Positions 40,498 through 47,936 of a stretch of 51,610 nt of DNA are shown here, piece by piece. Positions within the stretch are counted from its first letter, which is position 1, and every line of letters starts with the position of its first letter. The notes below the pieces were generated by a model that saw nothing but the letters and a program-made list of their open reading frames with translations, did no database searches and was not told the origin of the DNA. The translations under genes were made by a program, and so were the position numbers. The DNA is from a virus (lineage: Duplodnaviria; Caudoviricetes). The DNA is taken from the IMG/VR virus record IMGVR_UViG_3300021142_001969, positions 1 to 51,610 of that record; one strand, 5' to 3'.

Positions 40498-41679
40498 CTA
40501 AAACTTATTCCCTACAGCTCTTAATCTCTGATGTATTCTTTCTTTTTCACCAACTGCATAGTGAGCCATGGTTACAACCGTTGTAGTATGTCCAGCCATG
40601 CTAGCTGCTGCCTGTAAATCTAATATTGCTGCAGTCTCATCCAGATTCAAATGTTTAAGGCTGTAGAAGTCTGCTGTAATGCCTAATGGCTTTTTAACTA
40701 ACCGGTACCATCTTTTAGTTATTTGAATTGGGGTAATAGGTAGTGCTCCTGGTTTTAAATCGTAACTAAATATATAATCTCCATCTTTTGAATTTTGGAC
40801 AGAATTAGTCCAAAAGGGTAAAGCCACATCTTTTATAACCTTCATTACTTCTTTCCTGCTCCTACCCTTCTTAACAACTATTTTAAACCGTTGGTTCTTT
40901 AAATCAACATCTTCTTTTTTAATAAGTAGTAGTTCGCTAATTCTTGCGCCTGAATGGAAGAAGATTTGTAAGAAGTTCCAAAATGTAGGATATTTACTTT
41001 CCACATGATCGGTAACCATCTTTCGTTCTTTCTCGGTTAGAGTAGTCCTTATTTTCTTCAGCACTTCTTTTTTAGCTATCCCAATAATCGGATTAAACTC
41101 CATCGCCTCCAGTTCTACCAGCTCTTTAAAAATGATAGACATATACTTCCGGTAATTATTGAAAGTATTATTACTCCAATTGTTCTTACCTCCTAAGTAG
41201 TCAAAGATGGCGCGAATATGTTTGCGCTTGATTTCTCCTATTTGGACCATATCATAGCGAAGTTTTTTAGCTCCAGTTTCGAAGTGCCGGAACATTCCGA
41301 CAATCCCCTGCCTGGTCTTAGGTTCTAAAGTCAGCTTATCGAGAGCTTTGGCCATCGCTTCCAAAAGATAAATCCGGGGGTTAATTTCTTCCTCGCTTGC
41401 AATTATTCCAGTTATAGGGTTATAGCCAGATAAGAGTAAGGAAAGCTCATTATCGATTAATATTTGGGTATCGCTCCTTCTATCTTCCCTGGTCTTGGAG
41501 CTGTTCATCCCTTTAATGATCTTCAGCTTAGGCGCAATCTTACCATTTTTTAAAATTGTTGGGTCGTAGAACCGGTATTGAATATACCAGTCTTTGCTTG
41601 TGGTAGCTCTTAATGTTTTCCAATTTGTCGGGTTAACCTTCAATTCCGAGCAATAACATCCATTAGGTAGTTGTATCAT
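40498..41679 (-). CDS. int: Tyrosine integrase
   Basis: SGARISELL, YSLKH, MAGH, HY; adjacent to a tRNA-derived att core. Confidence 0.93.
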   Translation of the reverse strand: MIQLPNGCYCSELKVNPTNWKTLRATTSKDWYIQYRFYDPTILKNGKIAPKLKIIKGMNSSKTREDRRSDTQILIDNELSLLLSGYNPITGIIASEEEINPRIYLLEAMAKALDKLTLEPKTRQGIVGMFRHFETGAKKLRYDMVQIGEIKRKHIRAIFDYLGGKNNWSNNTFNNYRKYMSIIFKELVELEAMEFNPIIGIAKKEVLKKIRTTLTEKERKMVTDHVESKYPTFWNFLQIFFHSGARISELLLIKKEDVDLKNQRFKIVVKKGRSRKEVMKVIKDVALPFWTNSVQNSKDGDYIFSYDLKPGALPITPIQITKRWYRLVKKPLGITADFYSLKHLNLDETAAILDLQAAASMAGHTTTVVTMAHYAVGEKERIHQRLRAVGNKF

Positions 41680-42187: not shown

Positions 42188-42705
42188 TAGAAATTATTAT
42201 CTATAGCTTTTAGCATTGCAGCTTTGAACCTTGAAATTATATCCTTGCAACTTTCATCAATTCTTTGGATAAACTTACTATTACTTCTAGGGTGTTTAAT
42301 AATATTTTCTGCCGGCATATCAATTTTTCCGTGAGCAGAACTAGCTGGTATTGATACATAAATATTGTATAATTGTATTCTGTATTTATTATCCTTTACG
42401 GTTATGTTTATTACATAGTATATATCTTGCTCTAATGGACCAGTCATAAAATTGCCAACAGATTTTTGCGTGTATCCCTTACCCATAATAATACCACCAT
42501 CTTTATCATCAATCTGTAATACATCTTTTCCGCTATTAAAAGTATTTACAAACCAGGCTTTTGCTTTCATAAAAGCTTCAGCTTTATTTAAAGGTGTGCT
42601 GTCTATGGATTCATAGAATACTTTCCCTTCTTTCAGTGGAAGTTCTGTTTGTCCAAATCCATTAACCGAAATTGCGATTAATGCAACTAATAATATGTGT
42701 TTCAT
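42187..42705 (-). CDS. Exported DUF4468-like (TBP-like fold) protein
   Basis: Signal peptide ending GFG|Q; KAWFVNTFNSGKDVLQIDDKDGGIIMGKG, VKDNKYR. Confidence 0.8.
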   Translation of the reverse strand: MKHILLVALIAISVNGFGQTELPLKEGKVFYESIDSTPLNKAEAFMKAKAWFVNTFNSGKDVLQIDDKDGGIIMGKGYTQKSVGNFMTGPLEQDIYYVINITVKDNKYRIQLYNIYVSIPASSAHGKIDMPAENIIKHPRSNSKFIQRIDESCKDIISRFKAAMLKAIDNNF

Positions 42706-42715
42706 AATTTTTGTA

Positions 42716-42919
42716 TTAAATTTCTGAATCTACTGGCTTATCCTGCGTGAAATAAATAATGGCAATTGCAAAAGGCCACCCAAAGAGTACAGATAATAGA
42801 AGCACAAATGAAAAGCTTATATTCTTTTTTGTTTTCTCTATTCTATCAGCTAAAATTATTCCTGTAATCAGGTTATGTGATAGAATTGCAATGAAAATAG
42901 GACTTGATAAAAATTCCAT
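42716..42919 (-). CDS. Small 2-TM membrane protein
   Basis: Two hydrophobic helices; co-oriented with the repressor. Confidence 0.6.
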   Translation of the reverse strand: MEFLSSPIFIAILSHNLITGIILADRIEKTKKNISFSFVLLLSVLFGWPFAIAIIYFTQDKPVDSEI

Positions 42920-42942
42920 ATTTATTGATTTAGTTTTTAAAA

Positions 42943-43599
42943 TTAAGTTCTCTTGTTTAACCAGCCATGAATTAGCCAGATATTCTTTATCTTATCCTTT
43001 GGTAATTCAAAATCATCATATAGCTCATTCTCCGACTTTAATAAGAAGTGTGTTTGCTCCTTCTTGCTTCTTCTGATATATTTCAGATATCGTCTATTAT
43101 CAATACACACTATACCATAAATCTGACCATATTCCAAGTGACTCATCCAGTCCTCAATCTTAGTGGCAAATACTATACTTCCACTTTTTATAGTTGGCTC
43201 CATGCTGTCGCCATAAGCTCGGAACGAAATAGTTCCTCTAAATTCGGGTATGTCCATTGTATAGGCTGATTGGATCATTTGGGTATCATCGTAAAACTCA
43301 ATAGCATTACCAGCAGAAAAGTCAGCATCTATAAATTGTATCTCATTTTTATTACTACCGCTTAATTTTTTACTATGTAACTTCTCGTGGAAAGTTTGAG
43401 TATTTACATTTGTTTCAATATTCAAATCTTCATTAAACATTTGTTTCCATTTCAAGTAAAACTCAGTTTTTGGGTTTCTATCCCCTCTTTCATATAGCCC
43501 ATATAACTGGCTTGAAATGCCTAATTTTATTGACATTTCAGACTTTGATAACCCTAATAAAGCCCTTTTATTTGCTATATTCACACTTACTATACTCAT
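42943..43599 (-). CDS. cI: CI-like repressor (XRE HTH plus S24 autopeptidase)
   Basis: N-terminal HTH, SAG cleavage site, GDSMEP, LKY. Confidence 0.92.
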   Translation of the reverse strand: MSIVSVNIANKRALLGLSKSEMSIKLGISSQLYGLYERGDRNPKTEFYLKWKQMFNEDLNIETNVNTQTFHEKLHSKKLSGSNKNEIQFIDADFSAGNAIEFYDDTQMIQSAYTMDIPEFRGTISFRAYGDSMEPTIKSGSIVFATKIEDWMSHLEYGQIYGIVCIDNRRYLKYIRRSKKEQTHFLLKSENELYDDFELPKDKIKNIWLIHGWLNKRT

Positions 43600-43639
43600 T
43601 ATAAAAACATATCAAGTTATCCACATTTTAAAAATAAAT

Positions 43640-43674
43640 GAAACATTTGTTTTGCTGTACGAAACATTTGTTTA
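43640..43674. promoter_or_regulatory. Tandem putative repressor operators
   Basis: GAAACATTTGTTT at 43640 and 43661 (quasi-palindrome GAAACA-TT-TGTTTC). Confidence 0.7.
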
Positions 43675-43680
43675 TATTTG
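43651..43680 (+). promoter_or_regulatory. Early lytic promoter
   Basis: TTTG-N18-TATATTTG. Confidence 0.7.
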
Positions 43681-43690
43681 CAATGTGTTA

Positions 43691-43721
43691 CAAAGTTACA
43701 ACAAAATATGAGAATAGCAAA
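43691..43721 (-). promoter_or_regulatory. Repressor promoter
   Basis: Minus strand TTTG-N19-TAACTTTG. Confidence 0.7.
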
Positions 43722-43923
43722 TAACAGACAATTAGTTTTAAAAGAGTACTCCGATAAGTTGTTAGCTATCAGGGATTATGTTGAAGGTAAAGACATTATT
43801 CAGGCAGCGGCTAAGGTCGGGGTTGATAAAGTGACAGTTTACAGATACATAAAAGGAGAAGGTAAGAAGCATTTAATAGCTAAGAAGATTTATAATGCTT
43901 TAAGCCCACTAGCTAAAAACTAA
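43708..43923 (+). CDS. Cro-like HTH protein
   Basis: IIQAAAKVGVDKVTVYRYIKG; divergent from cI. Confidence 0.8.
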   Translation: MRIANNRQLVLKEYSDKLLAIRDYVEGKDIIQAAAKVGVDKVTVYRYIKGEGKKHLIAKKIYNALSPLAKN

Positions 43924-43926
43924 GCC

Positions 43927-44118
43927 ATGTCAAACGAGCAAGTCATAAAAGAATTAGACAGGATAATAAGAGTATCTAAGTCTGTAATTGATTCAGCCGT
44001 AAGGTTGAGAGGGCAACTGGAGGAGTTATCTCCTCCAGCTCCTACGGGGGCAGTAGTTCACAGGAGAACAGTTTTAAACCACATCCAAAGAAAGAATAAT
44101 AAAATAGTAAAAGCATAG
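43927..44118 (+). CDS. Hypothetical early protein
   Basis: Packed ORF. Confidence 0.6.
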   Translation: MSNEQVIKELDRIIRVSKSVIDSAVRLRGQLEELSPPAPTGAVVHRRTVLNHIQRKNNKIVKA

Positions 44119-44120
44119 CC

Positions 44121-44372
44121 ATGACACCGAAAACATTAACGATTACAGTAGATATACCGGCAAAGCATAGGGTTAACATTCACAAGCCTGCTGAGGTGGA
44201 AATAGAAGGGATTAGCTACCTAGCAGATAATCAGGTACCAACATTCATAATGACTAAGGCATCCTGGAAGCCGTCACATCTTCATAATGTGTTCAGCATC
44301 CCCTTAGCCTTTAAGTATATCGAAGAGACTTGCAACGCAAAGCATAAAGAATTTTTAAACACCCAAAAATAG
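44121..44372 (+). CDS. Hypothetical early protein
   Basis: Packed ORF. Confidence 0.6.
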   Translation: MTPKTLTITVDIPAKHRVNIHKPAEVEIEGISYLADNQVPTFIMTKASWKPSHLHNVFSIPLAFKYIEETCNAKHKEFLNTQK

Positions 44373-44376
44373 AAAC

Positions 44377-44661
44377 ATGAACGTTTACAAATTTAACCTC
44401 GTAAAAATCAACTCCTTAACAGGATTGCTCAATGAGATTATTGATAAGAATAACGCTGGTGCCAAACCCGTGACAGTATCTAACATTATTGGCTTTGTGT
44501 CTTGCATGGCTACTTTATACGATGCAGATTATAGCATCAAATTAAACGAGGATGAAAACAGTGTACATCTTGCTATTTACGAGAATAAAAACATAATAGC
44601 AGCTATTGCACACGATAAAGAGCCTGAATTACAATTACGTAAATCAATTAAAATCTATTAG
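44377..44661 (+). CDS. Hypothetical early protein
   Basis: Packed ORF. Confidence 0.6.
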   Translation: MNVYKFNLVKINSLTGLLNEIIDKNNAGAKPVTVSNIIGFVSCMATLYDADYSIKLNEDENSVHLAIYENKNIIAAIAHDKEPELQLRKSIKIY

Positions 44662-44663
44662 TT

Positions 44664-44933
44664 ATGATGATTTTACACTTTGGAGTAATCAATCTACCAA
44701 CAGATGCTGAGATGCTTGCATTTCAAATAGCAAAGTATAGAGAAATAGCATTAACTACTACTGATGAAGATCGTAAGAGATATGCTTTAAAGACACTAAG
44801 AGAAATTGATCATACTAACAAAAGTGGATTGTGTAAGCCATTTTCACAATCAGCAAAGAAGTTTTTTTTAGGGTTTCATGGAATAATGGGTAAAAATACC
44901 CCATCCGTTTCTACGGGTTTGGGGTTTAATTAG
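44664..44933 (+). CDS. Hypothetical early protein
   Basis: Packed ORF; 3' end overlaps hairpin 44898-44925. Confidence 0.6.
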   Translation: MMILHFGVINLPTDAEMLAFQIAKYREIALTTTDEDRKRYALKTLREIDHTNKSGLCKPFSQSAKKFFLGFHGIMGKNTPSVSTGLGFN

Positions 44934-44965
44934 GATTTATTTAATCATCATATAAAACAAAAAAA

Positions 44966-45205
44966 ATGAAAGTAAAAATGTTCAGAGATTCAGCAGCTAT
45001 CGAAAACAATGGTGCAAGTGCATCTGTTCCACAGGAAACAGCAAATCCTACTCCGGTAGAAGAACCAAAACAAGAGTCAGGTTTTGAAAAACTTGAAGAC
45101 AAGTTGGAGGAGATTGGAGAAGAAATTAAAGAGGAAGTGAAAGAAGTGATTGAGGAAGTGAAGGAATTCATTGAAGGTGATGACGCACCTGAGACAGAAG
45201 AGTAA
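44966..45205 (+). CDS. Highly acidic small protein
   Basis: EEIGEEIKEEVKEVIEEVKEFIE. Confidence 0.7.
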   Translation: MKVKMFRDSAAIENNGASASVPQETANPTPVEEPKQESGFEKLEDKLEEIGEEIKEEVKEVIEEVKEFIEGDDAPETEE

Positions 45206-45286
45206 TTCTTACTAAGAGTTTTTCATATGGCAAGCAATCGTTAACCGCCCTGAGGTTTTTACCTGTAAGGGCTTAATTTAAAAATA

Positions 45287-45296
45287 GTTCATTGAA
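45287..45296 (+). promoter_or_regulatory. boxA-like antitermination element
   Basis: GTTCATTGAA after hairpin 45247-45272, at the start of the RNA cluster; resembles rrn boxA. Confidence 0.5.
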
Positions 45297-45324
45297 GATA
45301 TATTCATCCGTCATTATGTTGAAT

Positions 45325-45426
45325 TGTGGTAGTAAGCGGATAGGACCACAGCCAAGCCCCTACGGCTTATCACGGGAAAACAATTTCCAGAAAGGGGCGA
45401 AATCGTGACAGCCTGGAAAGACAGGC
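45325..45426 (+). ncRNA. Structured RNA element upstream of tRNA
   Basis: TGTGGT/ACCACA, GCCCCT/AGGGGC, TCACG/CGTGA, GGAAA/TTTCC, GCCTG-GAAAGA-CAGGC. Confidence 0.5.
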
Positions 45427-45431
45427 AATAT

Positions 45432-45505
45432 AGCAGGGTGGAGCAGTTGGTTAGCTCAGTAGTCTCATAATCTACAAGTCGCTGGTTCGAGTCCAGCCCC
45501 TGCAA
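45432..45505 (+). tRNA. tRNA-Met(CAT), initiator-like body; CCA not encoded
   Basis: AGCAGGG/CCCTGCA, D-arm GAGC/GCTC, loop CTCATAA, T-arm GCTGG-TTCGAGT-CCAGC. Confidence 0.92.
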
Positions 45506-45671
45506 CACAACCGGGTAACCGGATAGTAAGCAAAGAGAGATAACTCTATAAAACTGACAAGAACGGAAAGACGTACGACCCTATGGAGGTACATATCCAT
45601 AGTCCCTACGGTTGAGCCGTAAGCATAGATGCAGGGCGCTCTGGTATTGGCTTTAATACTTAGTTCTTATC

Positions 45672-45742
45672 CCTTCCGTAGTTCACGGCAGTAACTGAAA
45701 AGATATTTCAAAGTAGGTTGACAAGAAACGATAAGCGGAAGG
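45672..45742 (+). ncRNA. tRNA-like element
   Basis: 7-bp CCTTCCG/CGGAAGG, TA, D-like GTTCACGGCAGTAAC, TGAAA/TTTCA arm; no TTC T-loop. Confidence 0.5.
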
Positions 45743-45757
45743 TTTTTTAAAACATTT

Positions 45758-45850
45758 AAGCAGGTTGCGCTAACTCGTAAGAATAGCGGTGAATAGACGG
45801 GCAGTTATTTAGCGACAACTGAATCGGATAAAACTTCGAACAACCTGCTT
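45758..45850 (+). ncRNA. Four-way-junction structured RNA
   Basis: 10-bp AAGCAGGTTG/CAACCTGCTT closing CGCTA/TAGCG, CAGTT/AACTG, TCGGA/TTCGA. Confidence 0.55.
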
Positions 45851-45865
45851 TTTAAAATAAAAGTA

Positions 45866-46144
45866 ATGATTGATAAAATTGAAATAACACTCTCTGAAAG
45901 CGGATTTATAAACGTAAATATTGGTGACGTTCATTTTATGCACTCAAATGATACTGGTGAAGTGCTATTAAATATAGCTGCTGCCATTAAGAAGTTAGCG
46001 TATTTCCCAAAAGGAAAGCATGAAAGCACAATGCCTATAACATACGAGGAATTTAAGAATAGATATAAAAAAACAAAAGTGGTTGCTCCTACCCGTAAGG
46101 ATGGAGGCATAAGTACAGAGAGTTCTAAAGAGCTTTCTAATTAA
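45866..46144 (+). CDS. Hypothetical protein
   Basis: 92-aa ORF. Confidence 0.55.
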   Translation: MIDKIEITLSESGFINVNIGDVHFMHSNDTGEVLLNIAAAIKKLAYFPKGKHESTMPITYEEFKNRYKKTKVVAPTRKDGGISTESSKELSN

Positions 46145-46177
46145 ACGACGGACAGCCACTTTTTTAAAATAGACTAT

Positions 46178-46384
46178 ATGAATTTAACGACTAAACAAAA
46201 GCAATTTATCAGACTTAACTCAAACAGACCAGCGTCAATGATAGCTAAGGATTTGGGAATAGATGATAAGAAGATTGTAGAAGACTATCAGAAAGAAAGT
46301 AGAAAGAGAAATGTGTTTGATATTATGTGCCCAATCACCGGACACAAACTGATTCATAACAAGAAAGTAAAAGAATTGAATTGA
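46178..46384 (+). CDS. Small HTH protein
   Basis: LTTKQKQFI..ASMIAKDLGI. Confidence 0.65.
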   Translation: MNLTTKQKQFIRLNSNRPASMIAKDLGIDDKKIVEDYQKESRKRNVFDIMCPITGHKLIHNKKVKELN

Positions 46385-46385
46385 T

Positions 46386-46565
46386 ATGAAACGTGCTACA
46401 CATTTTATTGAGACTTACAGAAATAGCGAAGGTGAAGTGAAGACTTCAAGGCCTTTCCCTATTGACACAATTAAATGGCACCAGTTAGGAAATAAAGTAA
46501 GAGGTTGGAAAACAATATTAATCGCAAAATTCAGGATAGATGATCGAAGAGATATCAAACGATAA
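46386..46565 (+). CDS. 59-aa ORF (not in ORF track)
   Basis: MKRATHFIETYRNSEGEVK..; starts 1 nt after the upstream stop. Confidence 0.55.
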   Translation: MKRATHFIETYRNSEGEVKTSRPFPIDTIKWHQLGNKVRGWKTILIAKFRIDDRRDIKR

Positions 46566-46659
46566 AGCAATGAGAATCGGATTAGCCATATTCGGGTTTG
46601 GGGTTCTGATTCTTGTATTAGTTAACGCATTAATACCATATAAGTTATGTGCAGTTTAA
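46540..46659 (+). CDS. 39-aa single-TM peptide
   Basis: MIEEISNDKAMRIGLAIFGFGVLILVLVNALIPYKLCAV. Confidence 0.45.
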   Translation: MIEEISNDKAMRIGLAIFGFGVLILVLVNALIPYKLCAV

Positions 46660-46769
46660 AAGACCAACTAATCGGTGAATGTATAATTATCGCATTCATG
46701 GCAATAGTAGTAGGATACTATCTGTTCTGGGCTTTGAAAGAAGAGTTAAAAAACAAACATCATGAGTAG
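46647..46769 (+). CDS. 40-aa single-TM peptide
   Basis: MCSLKDQLIGECIIIAFMAIVVGYYLFWALKEELKNKHHE. Confidence 0.45.
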   Translation: MCSLKDQLIGECIIIAFMAIVVGYYLFWALKEELKNKHHE

Positions 46770-46923
46770 TTACGAAGCTTTTCAAATGGAGAAATACGGC
46801 AACGTTCTGAATGCTAAAGGTGTAATATCAGAAATGTTTGAAAATAGGCTTGAAGAACAGGATCAGTTAACAGAATGGTTTAACCAGCAGGCAGAACTTA
46901 AATTGATAGAAAAAGAGAAATAA
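46762..46923 (+). CDS. 53-aa ORF
   Basis: MSSYEAFQMEKYGNVL.. Confidence 0.55.
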   Translation: MSSYEAFQMEKYGNVLNAKGVISEMFENRLEEQDQLTEWFNQQAELKLIEKEK

Positions 46924-46948
46924 AAAAGCCGCTGCTACGAACAGCGGC
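46922..46948 (-). terminator. Minus-strand intrinsic terminator
   Basis: A6-GCCGCTG-CTACGAA-CAGCGGC. Confidence 0.7.
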
Positions 46949-46979
46949 ATAGATAACCATAATTAAATAGTAAATCAAA

Positions 46980-47936
46980 ATGAGTACAAATGTAGGAAAA
47001 GTTGGCTTAGTTCAAAAATTAGAACAATCAAGCCCAGTGCAGATAGTAAATCTGCCAGAAGTTGCTAATAGGTTTAAAGACCTATATGCCATCATGAATG
47101 GCGGCAACAATAAGACAGCCGAATTAAAATATGAGGCAGAAAAGTTTCACTTCGCTAAGCTGATTCAGGATAATAAACCATTACAGGAGTGCACCAAGCT
47201 TTCTCTGTATGGATGCTTCCTGGACATGGCGGTAAATGGCTTATCATTTGATACAGCGATGAAGCACGCTTATGTAGTTGCTATGGGCGCAAATGTTGGT
47301 ACTAAAGATAATCCTAAGTGGGAAAAGAGAGCTACACTGATGGTGTCTGGTTACGGTGAGCTTCATATCCGTACAGCTCAGGGTCAGATAAAATATGCTG
47401 ACAATCCAATTATCGTGTATGAAGGTGATATGTTTAAGCATGGCACCAAGGATGGTAAAGTATTTCTGGAGCACGTTGCTGAATTCCCACGCAAGACAGA
47501 CAATATTATTGCCTGCTATATCAGACTGGAGCGTCCGGATGGAACGGTTGATTACAAGGTATTATCTATTGAGGAAATTATGAAGTTGAAGAAGTTCAGC
47601 AAGGATCCTAATAGTAAAGCCTGGACAGATGGATTGCCGGGAATGGTTCAGGCAAAGACGATTAAGCACGCTTTTCGTTCATATCCTAAAGTGAAACTTG
47701 GACAGTTCTCACAACTACAATCTGAAACTATTGATGTAGTGCCTGAAAGAGTAATTGATTATGGTATTGAAGAAGCTGAATTGCCATCAGCTACTGGAAC
47801 ATTCACACCGGTAATGGTAGTTGAACCGGTAAAGCCGCAGCAAGTTAATCAGCCACCAGTTAATGATGATGAATTTGCACAACCACAACAGCAGGCTTCA
47901 GCTAATTCAGTTACTCATTCAGATGATGATTTTTAA
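46980..47936 (+). CDS. recT: RecT-family ssDNA annealing protein
   Basis: LQECTKLSLYGC, GLSFD, YVV, VYEGD.F, W..G.PGMVQAKTIKHA; acidic DDDF tail. Confidence 0.88.
   Translation: MSTNVGKVGLVQKLEQSSPVQIVNLPEVANRFKDLYAIMNGGNNKTAELKYEAEKFHFAKLIQDNKPLQECTKLSLYGCFLDMAVNGLSFDTAMKHAYVVAMGANVGTKDNPKWEKRATLMVSGYGELHIRTAQGQIKYADNPIIVYEGDMFKHGTKDGKVFLEHVAEFPRKTDNIIACYIRLERPDGTVDYKVLSIEEIMKLKKFSKDPNSKAWTDGLPGMVQAKTIKHAFRSYPKVKLGQFSQLQSETIDVVPERVIDYGIEEAELPSATGTFTPVMVVEPVKPQQVNQPPVNDDEFAQPQQQASANSVTHSDDDF

What the first reader, a model, noticed from the sequence alone, without database searches (positions are those of the whole stretch)
45206..45865. ~650-nt non-coding island of consecutive tRNA-sized structured RNAs in the early operon
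Seen: a gene-free, relatively GC-richer stretch with a boxA-like site, a pseudoknot-capable element (45325-45408), the tRNA, CCGG-GTAA-CCGG, CTATGGA/TCCATAG, a CCCT..AGGG three-way junction (45604-36), a tRNA-like element (45672-742) and a four-way junction (45758-850); the last two end in T tracts. Inference: a processed polycistronic RNA array, such as decoys for tRNA-targeting toxins or an RNA-based antiterminator like HK022 put. I recognise no named Rfam family here.
Basis: partly seen in the sequence, partly recalled or inferred. Interest (0 to 1): 0.75.

Follow-up and report, generated by a model that had tools for sequence, protein, structure and literature searches.

The report
Phage tRNA flanked by conserved hairpins
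A gene-free stretch of a freshwater phage holds one tRNA gene bracketed by short RNA hairpin signals that recur, almost letter for letter, in hundreds of unrelated phages and are in no RNA catalogue searched here, so their job is an open question.

Summary
The 660-nt gap (45206-45865) is real, non-coding and GC-richer than its flanks. It holds one tRNA-Met(CAU). It is not a row of tRNA-sized RNAs: nothing else scores as tRNA-like.

Three short modules are conserved elsewhere, and Rfam 15 reported no family at any of them.
- **Motif 1 (45217-45279):** a 25-nt handle plus terminator hairpin. Its 17-mer occurs in 139 of 201 Chitinophagaceae genomes.
- **Motif 3 (45405-45427):** UGACA-GCCUG-GAAAGA-CAGGC-A, ending 5 nt before the tRNA. 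One stem pair covaries: U:A 99, C:G 63, U:G 3, C:A 0.
- **Motif 2 (45555-45602):** a variant of the same theme (UGACA-aga-ACG-GAAAGA-CGU plus a second hairpin). Its exact 22-mer is in 11 other viral contigs.

In other phages these modules often sit 3-8 nt before tRNAs, end in U tracts, or form multi-copy arrays in early leaders.

The remaining elements (45325-45404, 45604-45671, 45672-45748, 45758-45855) have no detected homologues, so covariation cannot be tested. Only 45755-45856 folds unusually well (z -3.1).

Function is inferred, not shown. My best guess is co-transcribed, RNase P-punctuated hairpin RNAs that present a binding site for a conserved factor.

The parts
44966..45205 (+). Upstream small acidic ORF (79 aa), the last gene before the island. 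Motif 1 acts as its 3' end module.
   Evidence: ORF list. No PHROG hit. Only sub-threshold Pfam hits.
45217..45246 (+). Motif 1 handle: TTTTCATATGGCAAGCAATCGTTAA, a Chitinophagaceae-specific conserved single-stranded box.
   Evidence: 96% matches in host-type genomes. The 17-mer is in 139 of 201 family genomes, against 6 hits for the reversed control. The 15-mer is in 13 of 301 phylum genomes, 12 of them handles already seen in the family sample. A handle HMM built without the window row hits 45219-45244 at E 8.6e-10, and it is the only significant hit in the window.
45247..45279 (+). Motif 1 hairpin GCCCT...AGGGC (45247-45272), followed by a weak T-rich tail TTAATTT.
   Evidence: Present in the MFE and centroid folds. 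In 43 other members the hairpin stem covaries, e.g. one pair is CG 20, UA 18, GC 2. The window's loop differs from the family's usual UUCY tetraloop.
45325..45404 (+). Two predicted hairpins (GTGGT..ACCAC; GCCCCT..AGGGGC with an inner GGAAA/TTTCC) in the tRNA 5' leader. No homologues found.
   Evidence: Fold of 45320-45431 gives z -2.5. A DNA search of 301 family genomes gave only scattered short hits. No Rfam hit.
45405..45427 (+). Motif 3: gTGACA-GCCTG-GAAAGA-CAGGC-A, a phage-wide hairpin ending 5 nt before the tRNA.
   Evidence: Distinct contexts: T:A 99, C:G 63, T:G 3, C:A 0. Of 37 extra copies with other stems, 28 keep all 4 outer pairs. Flanks: -1 T in 84/97, +1 A in 74/97; loci GC 31-65%. 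No Rfam hit.
45432..45506 (+). tRNA-Met (anticodon CAT), with an A1.A72 mismatch and no encoded CCA.
   Evidence: ARAGORN. Rfam RF00005 at 57.5 bits.
45511..45522 (+). Small hairpin CCGG-GTAA-CCGG, 4 nt after the tRNA.
   Evidence: Sequence and folds. No comparative evidence.
45555..45602 (+). Motif 2: TGACA-aga-ACG-GAAAGA-CGT-ACGACC, then hairpin CTATGGA-GGTACATA-TCCATAG (45581-45602).
   Evidence: The exact 22-mer is in 11 other IMG/VR contigs. A 31/34 match lies in one of 301 family genomes. In the metagenome scan 9 of 19 hits carry the full motif. The second hairpin has different stems and a conserved GGYAYAWA loop. It directly precedes a tRNA in L093, L101/L113 and L122, and lies about 80 nt before a tmRNA in L092.
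45604..45671 (+). Predicted Y-shaped hairpin CCCT..AGGG (45604-45636) and a weak hairpin (45643-45660). No support beyond folding.
   Evidence: Fold z -0.76 and -0.69. No homologues.
45672..45748 (+). A long-range 7-bp stem (45672-45678/45736-45742) closing a 57-nt multiloop, then TTTTTT. It holds a second TGACAAGAA box at 45719-45727.
   Evidence: Stem pair probability 0.77. Fold z -0.88. The 9-mer occurs twice in the window, both times in the island, but 22 of 100 shuffles also give 2 or more matches. The 19-mer around it has 0 IMG/VR hits.
45758..45855 (+). A perfect 10-bp long-range stem AAGCAGGTTG/CAACCTGCTT closing three hairpins, then TTTTT. Likely the terminator at the end of the cassette.
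   Evidence: Inverted repeat I1. Pair probability 0.92. Fold z -3.09, with 1 of 200 shuffles as good. No homologues found.

Best explanation
The island is a non-coding RNA cassette inserted in the early rightward operon of a temperate phage of Chitinophagaceae.

**Layout**
- Motif 1: a host-family-specific 'handle + terminator hairpin' that ends the upstream small gene.
- A structured leader, whose last hairpin is a member of a phage-wide family (UGAC, variable 4-bp stem, invariant G-GAAAGA-C cap).
- A tRNA-Met(CAU) gene, starting 5 nt after that hairpin.
- Motif 2: a second, variant member of the same family with its own extra hairpin, 49 nt after the tRNA.
- Two long-range stems followed by U tracts, which probably terminate the cassette.

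**Shown**
- The modules exist.
- They are conserved far outside this phage.
- Their stems covary while the UGAC box and the GGAAAGAC cap stay fixed.
- They are mostly co-oriented with neighbouring genes.
- In other phages they abut tRNAs, carry U tracts, or form multi-copy arrays in early leaders.

**Inferred mechanism**
- The cassette is transcribed with the early operon. RNase P cutting at the tRNA 5' end and 3' processing release the flanking hairpins as small RNAs or transcript ends.
- The invariant nucleotides, displayed on a variable stem, are a binding site for a highly conserved partner such as RNA polymerase with Nus factors, RNase P, or another universal RNA-binding protein.
- Binding would punctuate or stabilise early transcripts, or modify transcription through the terminators that follow (a boxB-like role).

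**My split**
- About 0.9 that at least three modules are genuine selected RNA-level elements.
- About 0.35 for processing or 3'-end punctuation as their role.
- About 0.2 for antitermination.
For: **Gap and tRNA:**

**Host assignment:** RecT relatives lie in Ferruginibacter/Chitinophagaceae MAGs. A cI-like repressor and an integrase lie upstream.

**Motif 1**
- Present in 139 of 201 family genomes, against 13 of 301 across the phylum.
- Stem covariation in the 44-sequence alignment.
- Of 20 IMG/VR hits, 17 carry the full motif; several of these sit directly before or after tRNAs.

**Motif 3**
- U:A 99, C:G 63, U:G 3, C:A 0.
- 28 of 37 non-seed copies keep 4/4 outer pairs, where about 2% is expected by chance. 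The reversed control gave 0 matches.
- A tRNA or tmRNA starts within 10 nt downstream in 8 of 100 contexts; a T run follows in 20 of 100.
- Same-strand ORFs dominate in 91 of 165 contexts, opposite-strand ORFs in 21.
- Rare in cells: 0 of 251 phylum genomes, and 4 intergenic hits in 5426 E. coli genomes.
- Multi-copy arrays in Ralstonia phage QkW1 and in an E. coli lambdoid prophage leader.

**Motif 2:**

**Folding:** all three hairpins appear in the MFE and centroid folds of the island.
Against: - There is no expression or end-mapping data. Only two DNA metagenome runs hold the stretch.
- The whole-island fold energy is unremarkable.
- The simple terminator scan found no + strand terminator in the island.
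- No partner protein family is enriched next to motif 3: the most frequent family matched 3 of 93 downstream ORFs. The 107-aa ORF after the E. coli array is acidic, not N-like.
- tRNA adjacency holds for a minority of motif 3 copies (8 of 100 within 10 nt).
- 16 of 165 motif 3 contexts lie inside same-strand ORFs of 100 aa or more.
- Seed copies were collected with exact patterns, which inflates the apparent invariance of the box and loop.
- The closest relatives, L002 and L003, lack the island altogether. It is therefore dispensable for this phage type.
Confidence: 0.55

Rival explanations
1. nut/put-like processive antitermination. The UGACA-stem-GAAAGA-stem hairpins would be boxB-like RNA sites that load a factor onto RNA polymerase, or bind it directly. 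Early transcription could then read through the terminators in and after the island (motif 1 hairpin, 45672-45748, 45758-45855) into the recombination genes.
For: - The island lies in the early operon about 1.7 kb downstream of the divergent cI-like repressor region, and upstream of RecT and exonuclease genes.
- T-tract structures follow the hairpins.
- In an E. coli lambdoid prophage, at least 4 such hairpins fill the leader after the cI-like gene and a promoter-like site, the place where lambda has nutL (lambda layout recalled).
- A 5-bp GC-rich stem with a purine-rich loop resembles boxB (recalled).
- The forward strand is mostly the coding strand.
Against: - No boxA was identified.
- No N-like protein was found.
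- Known boxB loops differ between related phages, whereas this cap is the same in phages of 31-65% GC.
- 20 of 100 copies are themselves followed by T runs, i.e. they look like terminators.
- Copies occur just before tRNAs and in short gene-to-gene spacers, for example in phage Pan5.
Confidence: 0.2
2. Sponge or decoy RNAs. The hairpins, alone or in arrays, would titrate a host RNA-binding protein or a defence nuclease. Motif 1 would mimic a host Chitinophagaceae sRNA/3'UTR signal to hijack its partner. This includes the reader's idea of decoys for tRNA-targeting toxins.
For: - Arrays with conserved loops on variable stems resemble the layout of protein-sequestering sRNAs (recalled: CsrB/RsmZ).
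- Host stand-alone sRNA-like loci carry 2-3 degenerate copies of motif 1.
- The phage copies a host-family-specific motif.
- Motif 3 is nearly absent from cellular genomes.
Against: - None of the elements is tRNA-like, so decoys for anticodon nucleases are unlikely.
- The window has single copies, not an array.
- No candidate partner is known.
- CsrA and Hfq are not universal across the host range implied (recalled).
Confidence: 0.12
3. DNA-level or mobility explanation. The conserved 20-25-mers would be boundary or recombination sequences (or single-strand DNA hairpins) that move small cassettes such as tRNA genes between phages. Their conservation would then reflect spread rather than RNA function.
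For: - The island is an indel relative to the closest relatives L002 and L003.
- Motifs 1 and 3 flank tRNA genes in several unrelated phages.
- The same exact 20-22-mers occur in otherwise unrelated contexts, with no shared upstream block.
- Mobile promoter/stem-loop cassettes are known in T4-type phages (recalled).
Against: - The stems change by compensatory pairs while the box and cap stay fixed. That is not expected from recent spread.
- U:G 3 against C:A 0, and the strand bias towards the coding strand, favour an RNA read from the + strand.
- T runs follow on the same strand.
- No inverted second copy or transposase association was seen.
Confidence: 0.08
4. An ordinary intergenic region: a tRNA gene with generic terminator or stabiliser hairpins and some decayed sequence. 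The rest would be chance folding.
For: - The whole-region fold z-score is modest.
- Most sub-elements have z above -1.
- No homologues were found for 45325-45404, 45604-45671, 45672-45748 or 45758-45855.
- Relatives with a tRNA-Met in the same place (L004, L005, L008) have unrelated flanks.
Against: Three modules are conserved at 20-25 nt in hundreds of other genomes with covarying stems. That rules out chance for about a quarter of the island.
Confidence: 0.05

Closest known systems
Lambda nut sites (boxA + boxB hairpin) and HK022 put RNAs (recalled from the literature, not retrieved here)
   Same: - A short conserved single-stranded box followed by a 5-bp GC-rich hairpin with a purine-rich loop.
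- Located in early operons of temperate phages, upstream of terminators.
- In an E. coli lambdoid prophage, the copies lie where nutL would lie.
   Different: - The loop is a fixed hexaloop GAAAGA closed by G-C, the same in phages of 31-65% GC. Known boxB loops are phage-specific.
- No boxA and no N-like gene were found.
- Many copies abut tRNAs or carry their own T run.
- Arrays of 3-4 or more copies occur.
GOLLD and ROOL large RNAs (Rfam RF01998, RF03087)
   Same: They are phage or prophage borne, often next to tRNA genes and possibly co-transcribed with them. This comes from passages of PMC5737381 seen.
   Different: - No Rfam match to either family in the window at E<=10, or in 31 related phage loci at gathering score.
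- The conserved units here are 23-50 nt hairpin modules, not a 500-800 nt ornate fold.
Small stable RNAs and spacer-derived sRNAs of tRNA operons (T4 tRNA-cluster species 1 and 2; E. coli 3'ETS-leuZ; P1/P4 C4 and CI RNAs cut out by RNase P). All recalled.
   Same: Non-tRNA RNAs are co-transcribed with tRNAs, or shaped like RNase P substrates, and are released by the tRNA-processing enzymes. Here a hairpin ends 3-8 nt before the tRNA 5' end in the window and in 8 of 100 other contexts.
   Different: The known examples are lineage-specific in sequence. This motif is shared across phages of many hosts. No processing data exist for it.
Proteo-phage-1 RNA motif (Rfam RF03044)
   Same: A phage-borne candidate RNA of unknown function. 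One instance lies about 85 nt upstream of a motif 3 copy on the same strand in L183.
   Different: It matched in only 1 of the 18 motif 3 loci scanned and not in the window. It does not cover the GAAAGA hairpin.

Membership tests
tRNA (RF00005) | Cloverleaf scoring above the Rfam gathering score, with an anticodon call by ARAGORN | tested here: met
   45432-45506 scores 57.5 bits against a cutoff of 29. ARAGORN calls tRNA-Met(cat).
   ARAGORN with thresholds lowered to 80% finds 1 gene in the 660 nt. The Rfam E<=10 scan lists no second tRNA-clan hit on the + strand.
Motif 1 family (unnamed; Chitinophagaceae handle + terminator hairpin) | Conserved handle TTTTCATATGGCAAGCAATCGTTAG | tested here: met
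   An HMM from 43 other members hits 45219-45244 at E 8.6e-10. The 17-mer is exact.
Motif 1 family (unnamed) | GC-rich hairpin with a UUCY tetraloop directly after the handle, then a T run | tested here: inconclusive
   A hairpin is present at 45247-45272, but it has a different, larger loop and only TTAATTT after it.
Motif 3 family (unnamed; UGAC-stem-GGAAAGAC-stem) | UGAC box, 1 nt, 4 covarying pairs, a G-C closing pair and a GAAAGA loop, with A after the stem | tested here: met
   45406-45427 is identical to the commonest variant, found 106 times in the fetched loci. Flank preferences match: T at -1, A at +1.
Motif 3 family, variant form (motif 2) | The same box and cap on a different stem | tested here: met
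   45555-45574 reads TGACA-aga-ACG-GAAAGA-CGT. The stem is only 3 bp and does not vary among members, so its pairing cannot be tested. Homology with motif 3 is inferred from the shared box and cap.
Lambda-type nut site | boxA consensus upstream of the hairpin | not tested
No boxA model was run.
Lambda-type nut site | A cognate N-like arginine-rich antiterminator gene nearby | tested here: not met
   No Pfam family for the small early ORFs of the window. The ORF after the E. coli array is acidic. Short N-like proteins could escape these tests.
Lambda-type nut / HK022 put | Read-through of downstream terminators that depends on the RNA element | not testable with these tools
   Needs reporter or in vitro transcription assays.
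GOLLD / ROOL | Match to the Rfam covariance model | tested here: not met
   No hit at E<=10 in 45000-46100, nor at gathering score in the whole window.
Intrinsic terminator | Short GC-rich hairpin (loop 3-8) directly followed by a T run | tested here: not met
   The consensus scan found no + strand site in 42500-47500. The T tracts at 45743-45748 and 45851-45855 follow long-range stems that enclose multiloops.

The most novel reading that the evidence does not exclude
The UGAC-stem-GGAAAGAC-stem hairpin would be a previously undescribed, cross-phylum phage RNA signal read by a universally conserved host machine: RNA polymerase with Nus factors, or RNase P. Phages would place it before tRNAs, before long hairpins and in early leaders. 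There it would direct factor-independent antitermination or targeted RNase P cleavage. On this reading, the island in this window is a small 'RNA operon' built from that signal, a host-mimicking Chitinophagaceae sRNA module, and a tRNA.
Probability: 0.25. Interest if true: 0.85.

Novelty: new variant of a known kind. Interest (0 to 1): 0.72.

Why it matters
- A 22-nt RNA hairpin kept nearly letter for letter in phages of Bacteroidota, Proteobacteria and Cyanobacteria and in crAss-like phages, yet almost absent from cellular genomes, points to an interaction with something every bacterium shares. Very few such phage-borne cis or trans RNA signals are known.
- It is short, easy to synthesise, and testable in laboratory E. 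coli.
- Motif 1 gives a separate lead. It is a family-specific 3'UTR/sRNA signal in Chitinophagaceae, a group with almost no described RNA biology, and phages have copied it. It also works as a host-range marker for uncultured phages.
- For the scan, the lesson is that the value of this island lay in three short conserved boxes rather than in the larger predicted folds.

Tried and rejected
**Expression**
- One search for sequencing runs listed two DNA freshwater-metagenome runs and no RNA holder.
- Their contigs are identical to the window, so they give neither variation nor expression data.

**Earlier findings and relatives**
- The earlier-findings tool was not open.

**Homologues of the island by neighbouring proteins**
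- ORF 45866-46144 gave one relative, L002, which has no gap.
- ORF 44966-45205 gave none.
- RecT gave 4 viral and 14 genomic loci. Only the tRNA is shared, and only in L004, L005 and L008.

**Direct DNA searches**
- BLAST of the island against INPHARED phages found only the tRNA.
- DNA searches of 301 Chitinophagaceae genomes with 45507-45865 and with 45262-45431 gave only the motif 2 hit and one exact 23-mer of motif 3. The rest were scattered, chance-level hits.
- The 19-mer of the TGACAAGAA region in 45672-45748 had 0 IMG/VR hits.
- The apparent L059 match to the start of 45758-45850 lies in a coding region.

**Readings considered and dropped**
- The mini-ORF reading of motif 1 (ATG GCA AGC AAT CGT TAA): ATG is ATA in many copies.
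- Further degenerate motif 1 copies in the island: the HMM finds none.
- A protein partner next to motif 3: no family is enriched among 93 downstream ORFs.

**Literature**
- Searches by sequence string and by keywords found nothing describing these motifs.
Rfam 15 was scanned instead, on my recollection that those motifs were deposited there.

**Not done**
- No covariance model was built. Motif counts rest on exact or degenerate patterns, regular expressions and one HMM.
Full report
**Setting**

The window is a 51.6-kb IMG/VR virus record, estimated 97% complete. It has structural genes, then an integrase (40498-41679, -) and a cI-like repressor (42943-43599, -). A rightward run of small ORFs follows, leading to RecT, an exonuclease and a NinB-like gene. 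Relatives of its RecT lie in Ferruginibacter and other Chitinophagaceae MAGs, so the host is most likely a member of that family. The finding lies in the early rightward operon, between a 79-aa acidic ORF (44966-45205) and a 92-aa ORF (45866-46144).

**The observation**

- The gap has no + strand ORF of 30 aa or more, apart from a 38-aa TTG frame.
- It is GC-richer than its flanks: 0.42-0.485 against 0.31-0.36.
- ARAGORN and Rfam agree on one tRNA-Met(CAT) at 45432-45506.
- A permissive Rfam scan of 45000-46100 (E<=10) lists nothing else credible.
- ARAGORN at a lowered threshold still finds only one tRNA-like fold.

Thermodynamics alone is unimpressive, though:

| Region | Fold z-score |
|---|---|
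| Whole 660 nt, + strand | -1.5 |
| Whole 660 nt, - strand | -2.4 |
| 45320-45431 | -2.5 |
| 45507-45580 | -2.0 |
| 45755-45856 | -3.1 |
| Other four segments | -0.4 to -0.9 |

It is a real non-coding island with a tRNA and many hairpins, but not a series of tRNA-sized or tRNA-like units.

**Relatives by synteny**

- The closest phages found through neighbouring proteins lack the island. In L002 the homologue of the downstream ORF abuts the preceding gene. L003 (RecT 88% identical) has no tRNA.
- Three more distant relatives (L004, L005, L008) carry a tRNA-Met(CAT) 400-450 nt upstream of RecT, but with unrelated flanks.
- BLAST against GenBank phages found only the tRNA.

The island is thus an indel, and whole-island homologues were not available.

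**Motif 1 (45217-45279)**

A DNA search of three host-type genomes gave 96% matches to 45217-45246. The 17-mer ATGGCAAGCAATCGTTA, allowing one mismatch, occurs as follows:

| Sample | Genomes with a match |
|---|---|
| Chitinophagaceae family (17-mer, up to 1 mismatch) | 139 of 201, at 1-10 copies each |
| Reversed-pattern control, same genomes | 6 hits in all |
| Bacteroidota phylum (exact 15-mer) | 13 of 301 |

Twelve of those 13 are handles already met in the family sample. The motif is therefore essentially family-specific.

The consensus is aagaTTTTCAT ATGGCAAGCAATCGTTA GAGGcc, followed by a hairpin with a UUCY tetraloop and a T run. In a 44-sequence alignment the inner stem pairs covary. 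One pair, for example, is CG 20, UA 18, GC 2.

In host loci the motif has two main settings:
- It follows small (54-76 aa) lipoprotein-like genes with low-complexity T/D/A/K repeats, in 17 of the 37 host motif copies examined. In three more it follows larger genes.
- It closes stand-alone sRNA-like units that carry two or three degenerate internal copies behind a promoter-like TAnnTTTG box.

Twenty such host loci gave no Rfam hit at gathering score.

An HMM of the handle, built without the window row, hits the window only at 45219-45244 (E 8.6e-10). The window's hairpin (45247-45272) has a different loop and only a weak T-rich tail.

In IMG/VR the exact 17-mer occurs in 20 stretches. Three look like chance in-ORF hits. 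The other 17 carry the full motif:
- Some lie at gene ends.
- Five sit directly in front of a tRNA: L072 (Val), L074 (Phe, with a copy on each side), and L078, L088 and L090 (Met).
- One, L083, sits just behind a tRNA.

**Motif 2 (45555-45602)**

The only significant hit when 45507-45865 was searched in 301 family genomes was a 31/34 match to 45550-45583 (E 2.3e-6).

- The exact 22-mer GACAAGAACGGAAAGACGTACG occurs in 11 other IMG/VR contigs.
- A 19-mer scan of metagenome contigs gave 19 hits. Ten are coding-frame chance matches and nine carry the whole motif, four of them giving new variants.

In every real copy the box is followed by (A/G)CC and a hairpin. The stem of that hairpin differs between copies: TATGGA/TCCATA in the window, and CAGAC/GTCTG, CAGGC/GCCTG, CAGTG/CACTG and GCATAC/GTATGC elsewhere. 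Its 8-nt loop is conserved as GGYAYAWA.

A tRNA starts a few nucleotides after this hairpin in L093, L101/L113 and L122. A tmRNA follows about 80 nt later in L092, and a tmRNA lies about 445 nt upstream in L126.

**Motif 3 (45405-45427)**

This is the last hairpin of the tRNA leader, GCCTG-GAAAGA-CAGGC preceded by TGACA. It ends 5 nt before the tRNA.

A pattern with Y and R at one stem pair again hit the limit at 117.

*Covariation.* Counting distinct contexts in all fetched loci gives T:A 99, C:G 63, T:G 3, C:A 0. This is a clean compensatory change with no mismatches.

*An unbiased check.* I looked only at additional copies in those loci, matched by TGAC-N5-GGAAAGAC and excluding the copies the loci were fetched by. 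There were 37.
- 28 form all four outer pairs, 8 form three, and 1 forms two. About 2% would be expected to form all four by chance.
- The stems are as different as GCTCG/CGAGC, ACTTG/CAAGT, TGCGG/CCGCA and CCTAG/CTAGG.
- The reversed control pattern had no match.

*Flanks and host range.*
- Position -1 is T in 84 of 97 contexts and +1 is A in 74 of 97. The loci range from 31 to 65% GC.
- No upstream block is shared by all.
- Named phages with the element include Ralstonia phages (GP4, QkW1, YL1-4 and others), crAss-like cr55_1, Pseudanabaena phage Pan5, Pseudomonas phage KLEP17-4, Acinetobacter phage Alexa and Erwinia phage phiEt88. In nearly all of these named phages no feature is annotated under the match.

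*Rarity in cells.*

| Sample | Result |
|---|---|
| Bacteroidota genomes | 0 of 251 |
| Chitinophagaceae genomes | one exact 23-mer in 301 |
| E. coli genomes | 4 intergenic hits in 5426 |

*What follows the hairpin,* in 100 unique contexts:
- a tRNA or tmRNA starting within 10 nt in 8;
- a T run in 20;
- in many others, a long hairpin beginning ACC or ACA.

*Orientation.* Same-strand ORFs dominate the surroundings in 91 of 165 contexts, against 21 for the opposite strand.

*Arrays.*
- Ralstonia phage QkW1 has three variant copies in one 620-nt gap.
- An E. coli lambdoid prophage has at least four, plus three AGGAAAGACCAA boxes. They lie in the 930-nt leader that follows the cI-like gene and a promoter-like site.

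*Catalogues and partners.*
- Rfam found nothing under the motif in 18 loci at gathering score, or in the E. coli leader at E<=5.
- PHROG scans of the 93 nearest downstream ORFs show no recurrent partner, only assorted DNA-metabolism genes.

**Motif 2 belongs to the same theme**

Motif 2 begins TGACA-aga-ACG-GAAAGA-CGT. That is the UGACA box and the GGAAAGAC cap on a 3-bp stem. The tRNA in the window is therefore bracketed by two members of one hairpin family.

A third TGACAAGAA box lies at 45719-45727, inside the T-tract structure 45672-45748. It has no GAAAGA hairpin, its 19-mer has no IMG/VR match, and the 9-mer count is not significant on its own.

**What remains unsupported**

These elements have no detected homologues, so covariation cannot be assessed:
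- the two leader hairpins 45325-45404;
- the GNRA hairpin 45511-45522;
- the Y-shaped 45604-45636;
- the two long-range stems with T tracts, 45672-45748 and 45758-45855.

The 10-bp perfect stem of 45758-45850 (pair probability 0.92, fold z -3.1) followed by TTTTT is the best candidate for a functional structure. I read it, and more weakly 45672-45748, as terminators closing the cassette. The simple terminator scan does not call them, because their stems enclose multiloops.

**Mechanism**

*Shown:* conservation, stem covariation, strand bias, position relative to tRNAs and T runs, and arrays in early leaders.

*Inferred:*
- The cassette is transcribed with the early operon.
- RNase P cutting at the tRNA 5' end and 3' processing release the flanking hairpins.
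- A fixed UGAC box and G-GAAAGA-C cap on a freely varying stem is the signature of a binding site. Because it is the same in phages of very different hosts, the partner should be something nearly universal.

I rank the possible roles as follows:

| Role | Probability |
|---|---|
| Punctuation or protection of early transcripts and small RNAs | about 0.35 |
| boxB-like modification of RNA polymerase ahead of the terminators | about 0.2 |
| Sponge or decoy | about 0.12 |
| DNA-level cassette boundary | about 0.08 |
| Nothing special | about 0.05 |

Motif 1 is best read as the phage borrowing a host-family 3'-end/sRNA signal.

No expression data could be had. Only two DNA metagenome runs hold the sequence, and their contigs are identical to the window.

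**Comparison and novelty**

The nearest known things are lambda nut/boxB and HK022 put (recalled), GOLLD/ROOL (passages of PMC5737381), and small RNAs released from tRNA transcripts (recalled). The elements fail or cannot be tested on the defining features of each; see the membership table.

I found no paper with the motif 3 sequence string. Keyword searches found no description of any of the three motifs.

I rate the finding a new variant of a known kind: phage cis- or trans-acting hairpin signals linked to tRNA genes. There is a fair chance that the GAAAGA hairpin is a new class in its own right.

Noticed in passing
Host loci L022-L058 (e.g. L030, L031, L034, L039, L049, L051, L054, L056, L058): Chitinophagaceae genomes carry stand-alone sRNA-like units of about 190 nt. 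Each has a TAnnTTTG promoter-like box, then 2-3 degenerate internal copies of the motif 1 handle, then a final perfect copy with a terminator. Other copies of motif 1 follow small lipoprotein-like genes, often with an upstream GCTTGC that could pair with GGCAAGC.
   Followed up: partly
window 45432-45506: The tRNA-Met(CAT) has an A1.A72 mismatch at the top of the acceptor stem and a U.U at the base of the anticodon stem. It lacks three G-C pairs in the anticodon stem and encodes no CCA. Whether it is an initiator, an elongator or an Ile2 (lysidine) tRNA was not resolved.
   Followed up: no
L004 4621-4694, L005 4508-4580, L008 5479-5552: A tRNA-Met(CAT) 400-450 nt upstream of RecT recurs in 3 of the 18 RecT-related loci, with unrelated flanking hairpins and terminators. 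The position of the tRNA in the early operon is therefore recurrent even where the island is not.
   Followed up: partly
L329 2480-3240 (E. coli strain 44 prophage, NZ_CM132959.1): The 930-nt leader after the cI-like gene holds at least 4 CTGAC-stem-GAAAGA-stem hairpins, 3 AGGAAAGACCAA boxes and hairpins with (C/A)UGACC(U/A) loops. There is also a sub-threshold RprA-like match at 2851-2951 (48.3 bits against a cutoff of 70).
   Followed up: partly
L247 1770-2130 (Ralstonia phage QkW1); L127, L145, L146, L152, L158 and others: In many proteobacterial-type loci, motif 3 is followed by a long hairpin (ACCACA...TGTGGT or ACACAACAGG...CCGTTGTGG). After that comes GAAT plus a hairpin GCGCR-GGCTGA-YGCGC. 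This suggests a larger multi-domain RNA of which motif 3 is the 5' domain.
   Followed up: no
L127, L159, L162, L173 (about 10 nt upstream of motif 3): A hairpin CACGGC-AAGCAA-GCCGTG precedes motif 3. It shares the 9-mer GGCAAGCAA with the motif 1 handle of Chitinophagaceae. This could be chance or a distant link between the two motifs.
   Followed up: no
L092 133-458, L126 1705-2084, L096 11629-11704: Phage contigs that carry motif 2 also encode tmRNA (two contigs), and one encodes a CTA-anticodon (amber suppressor type) tRNA.
   Followed up: no
window 45332-45343 and 45515-45526: There is a direct repeat, GTAAGCGGATAG and GTAACCGGATAG, one copy in the leader hairpin and one in the hairpin just after the tRNA. 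A second pair is GTAAGCAAAGA and GTAAGCATAGA at 45526 and 45619.
   Followed up: no
L099 reverse strand 868-1352: Another phage has a comparable gene-free island of about 485 nt. It holds motif 2, a 75-nt tRNA-shaped stretch that ARAGORN does not call, and a second diverged copy (TGACAAACGGAAAGACGTAAGAC).
   Followed up: partly
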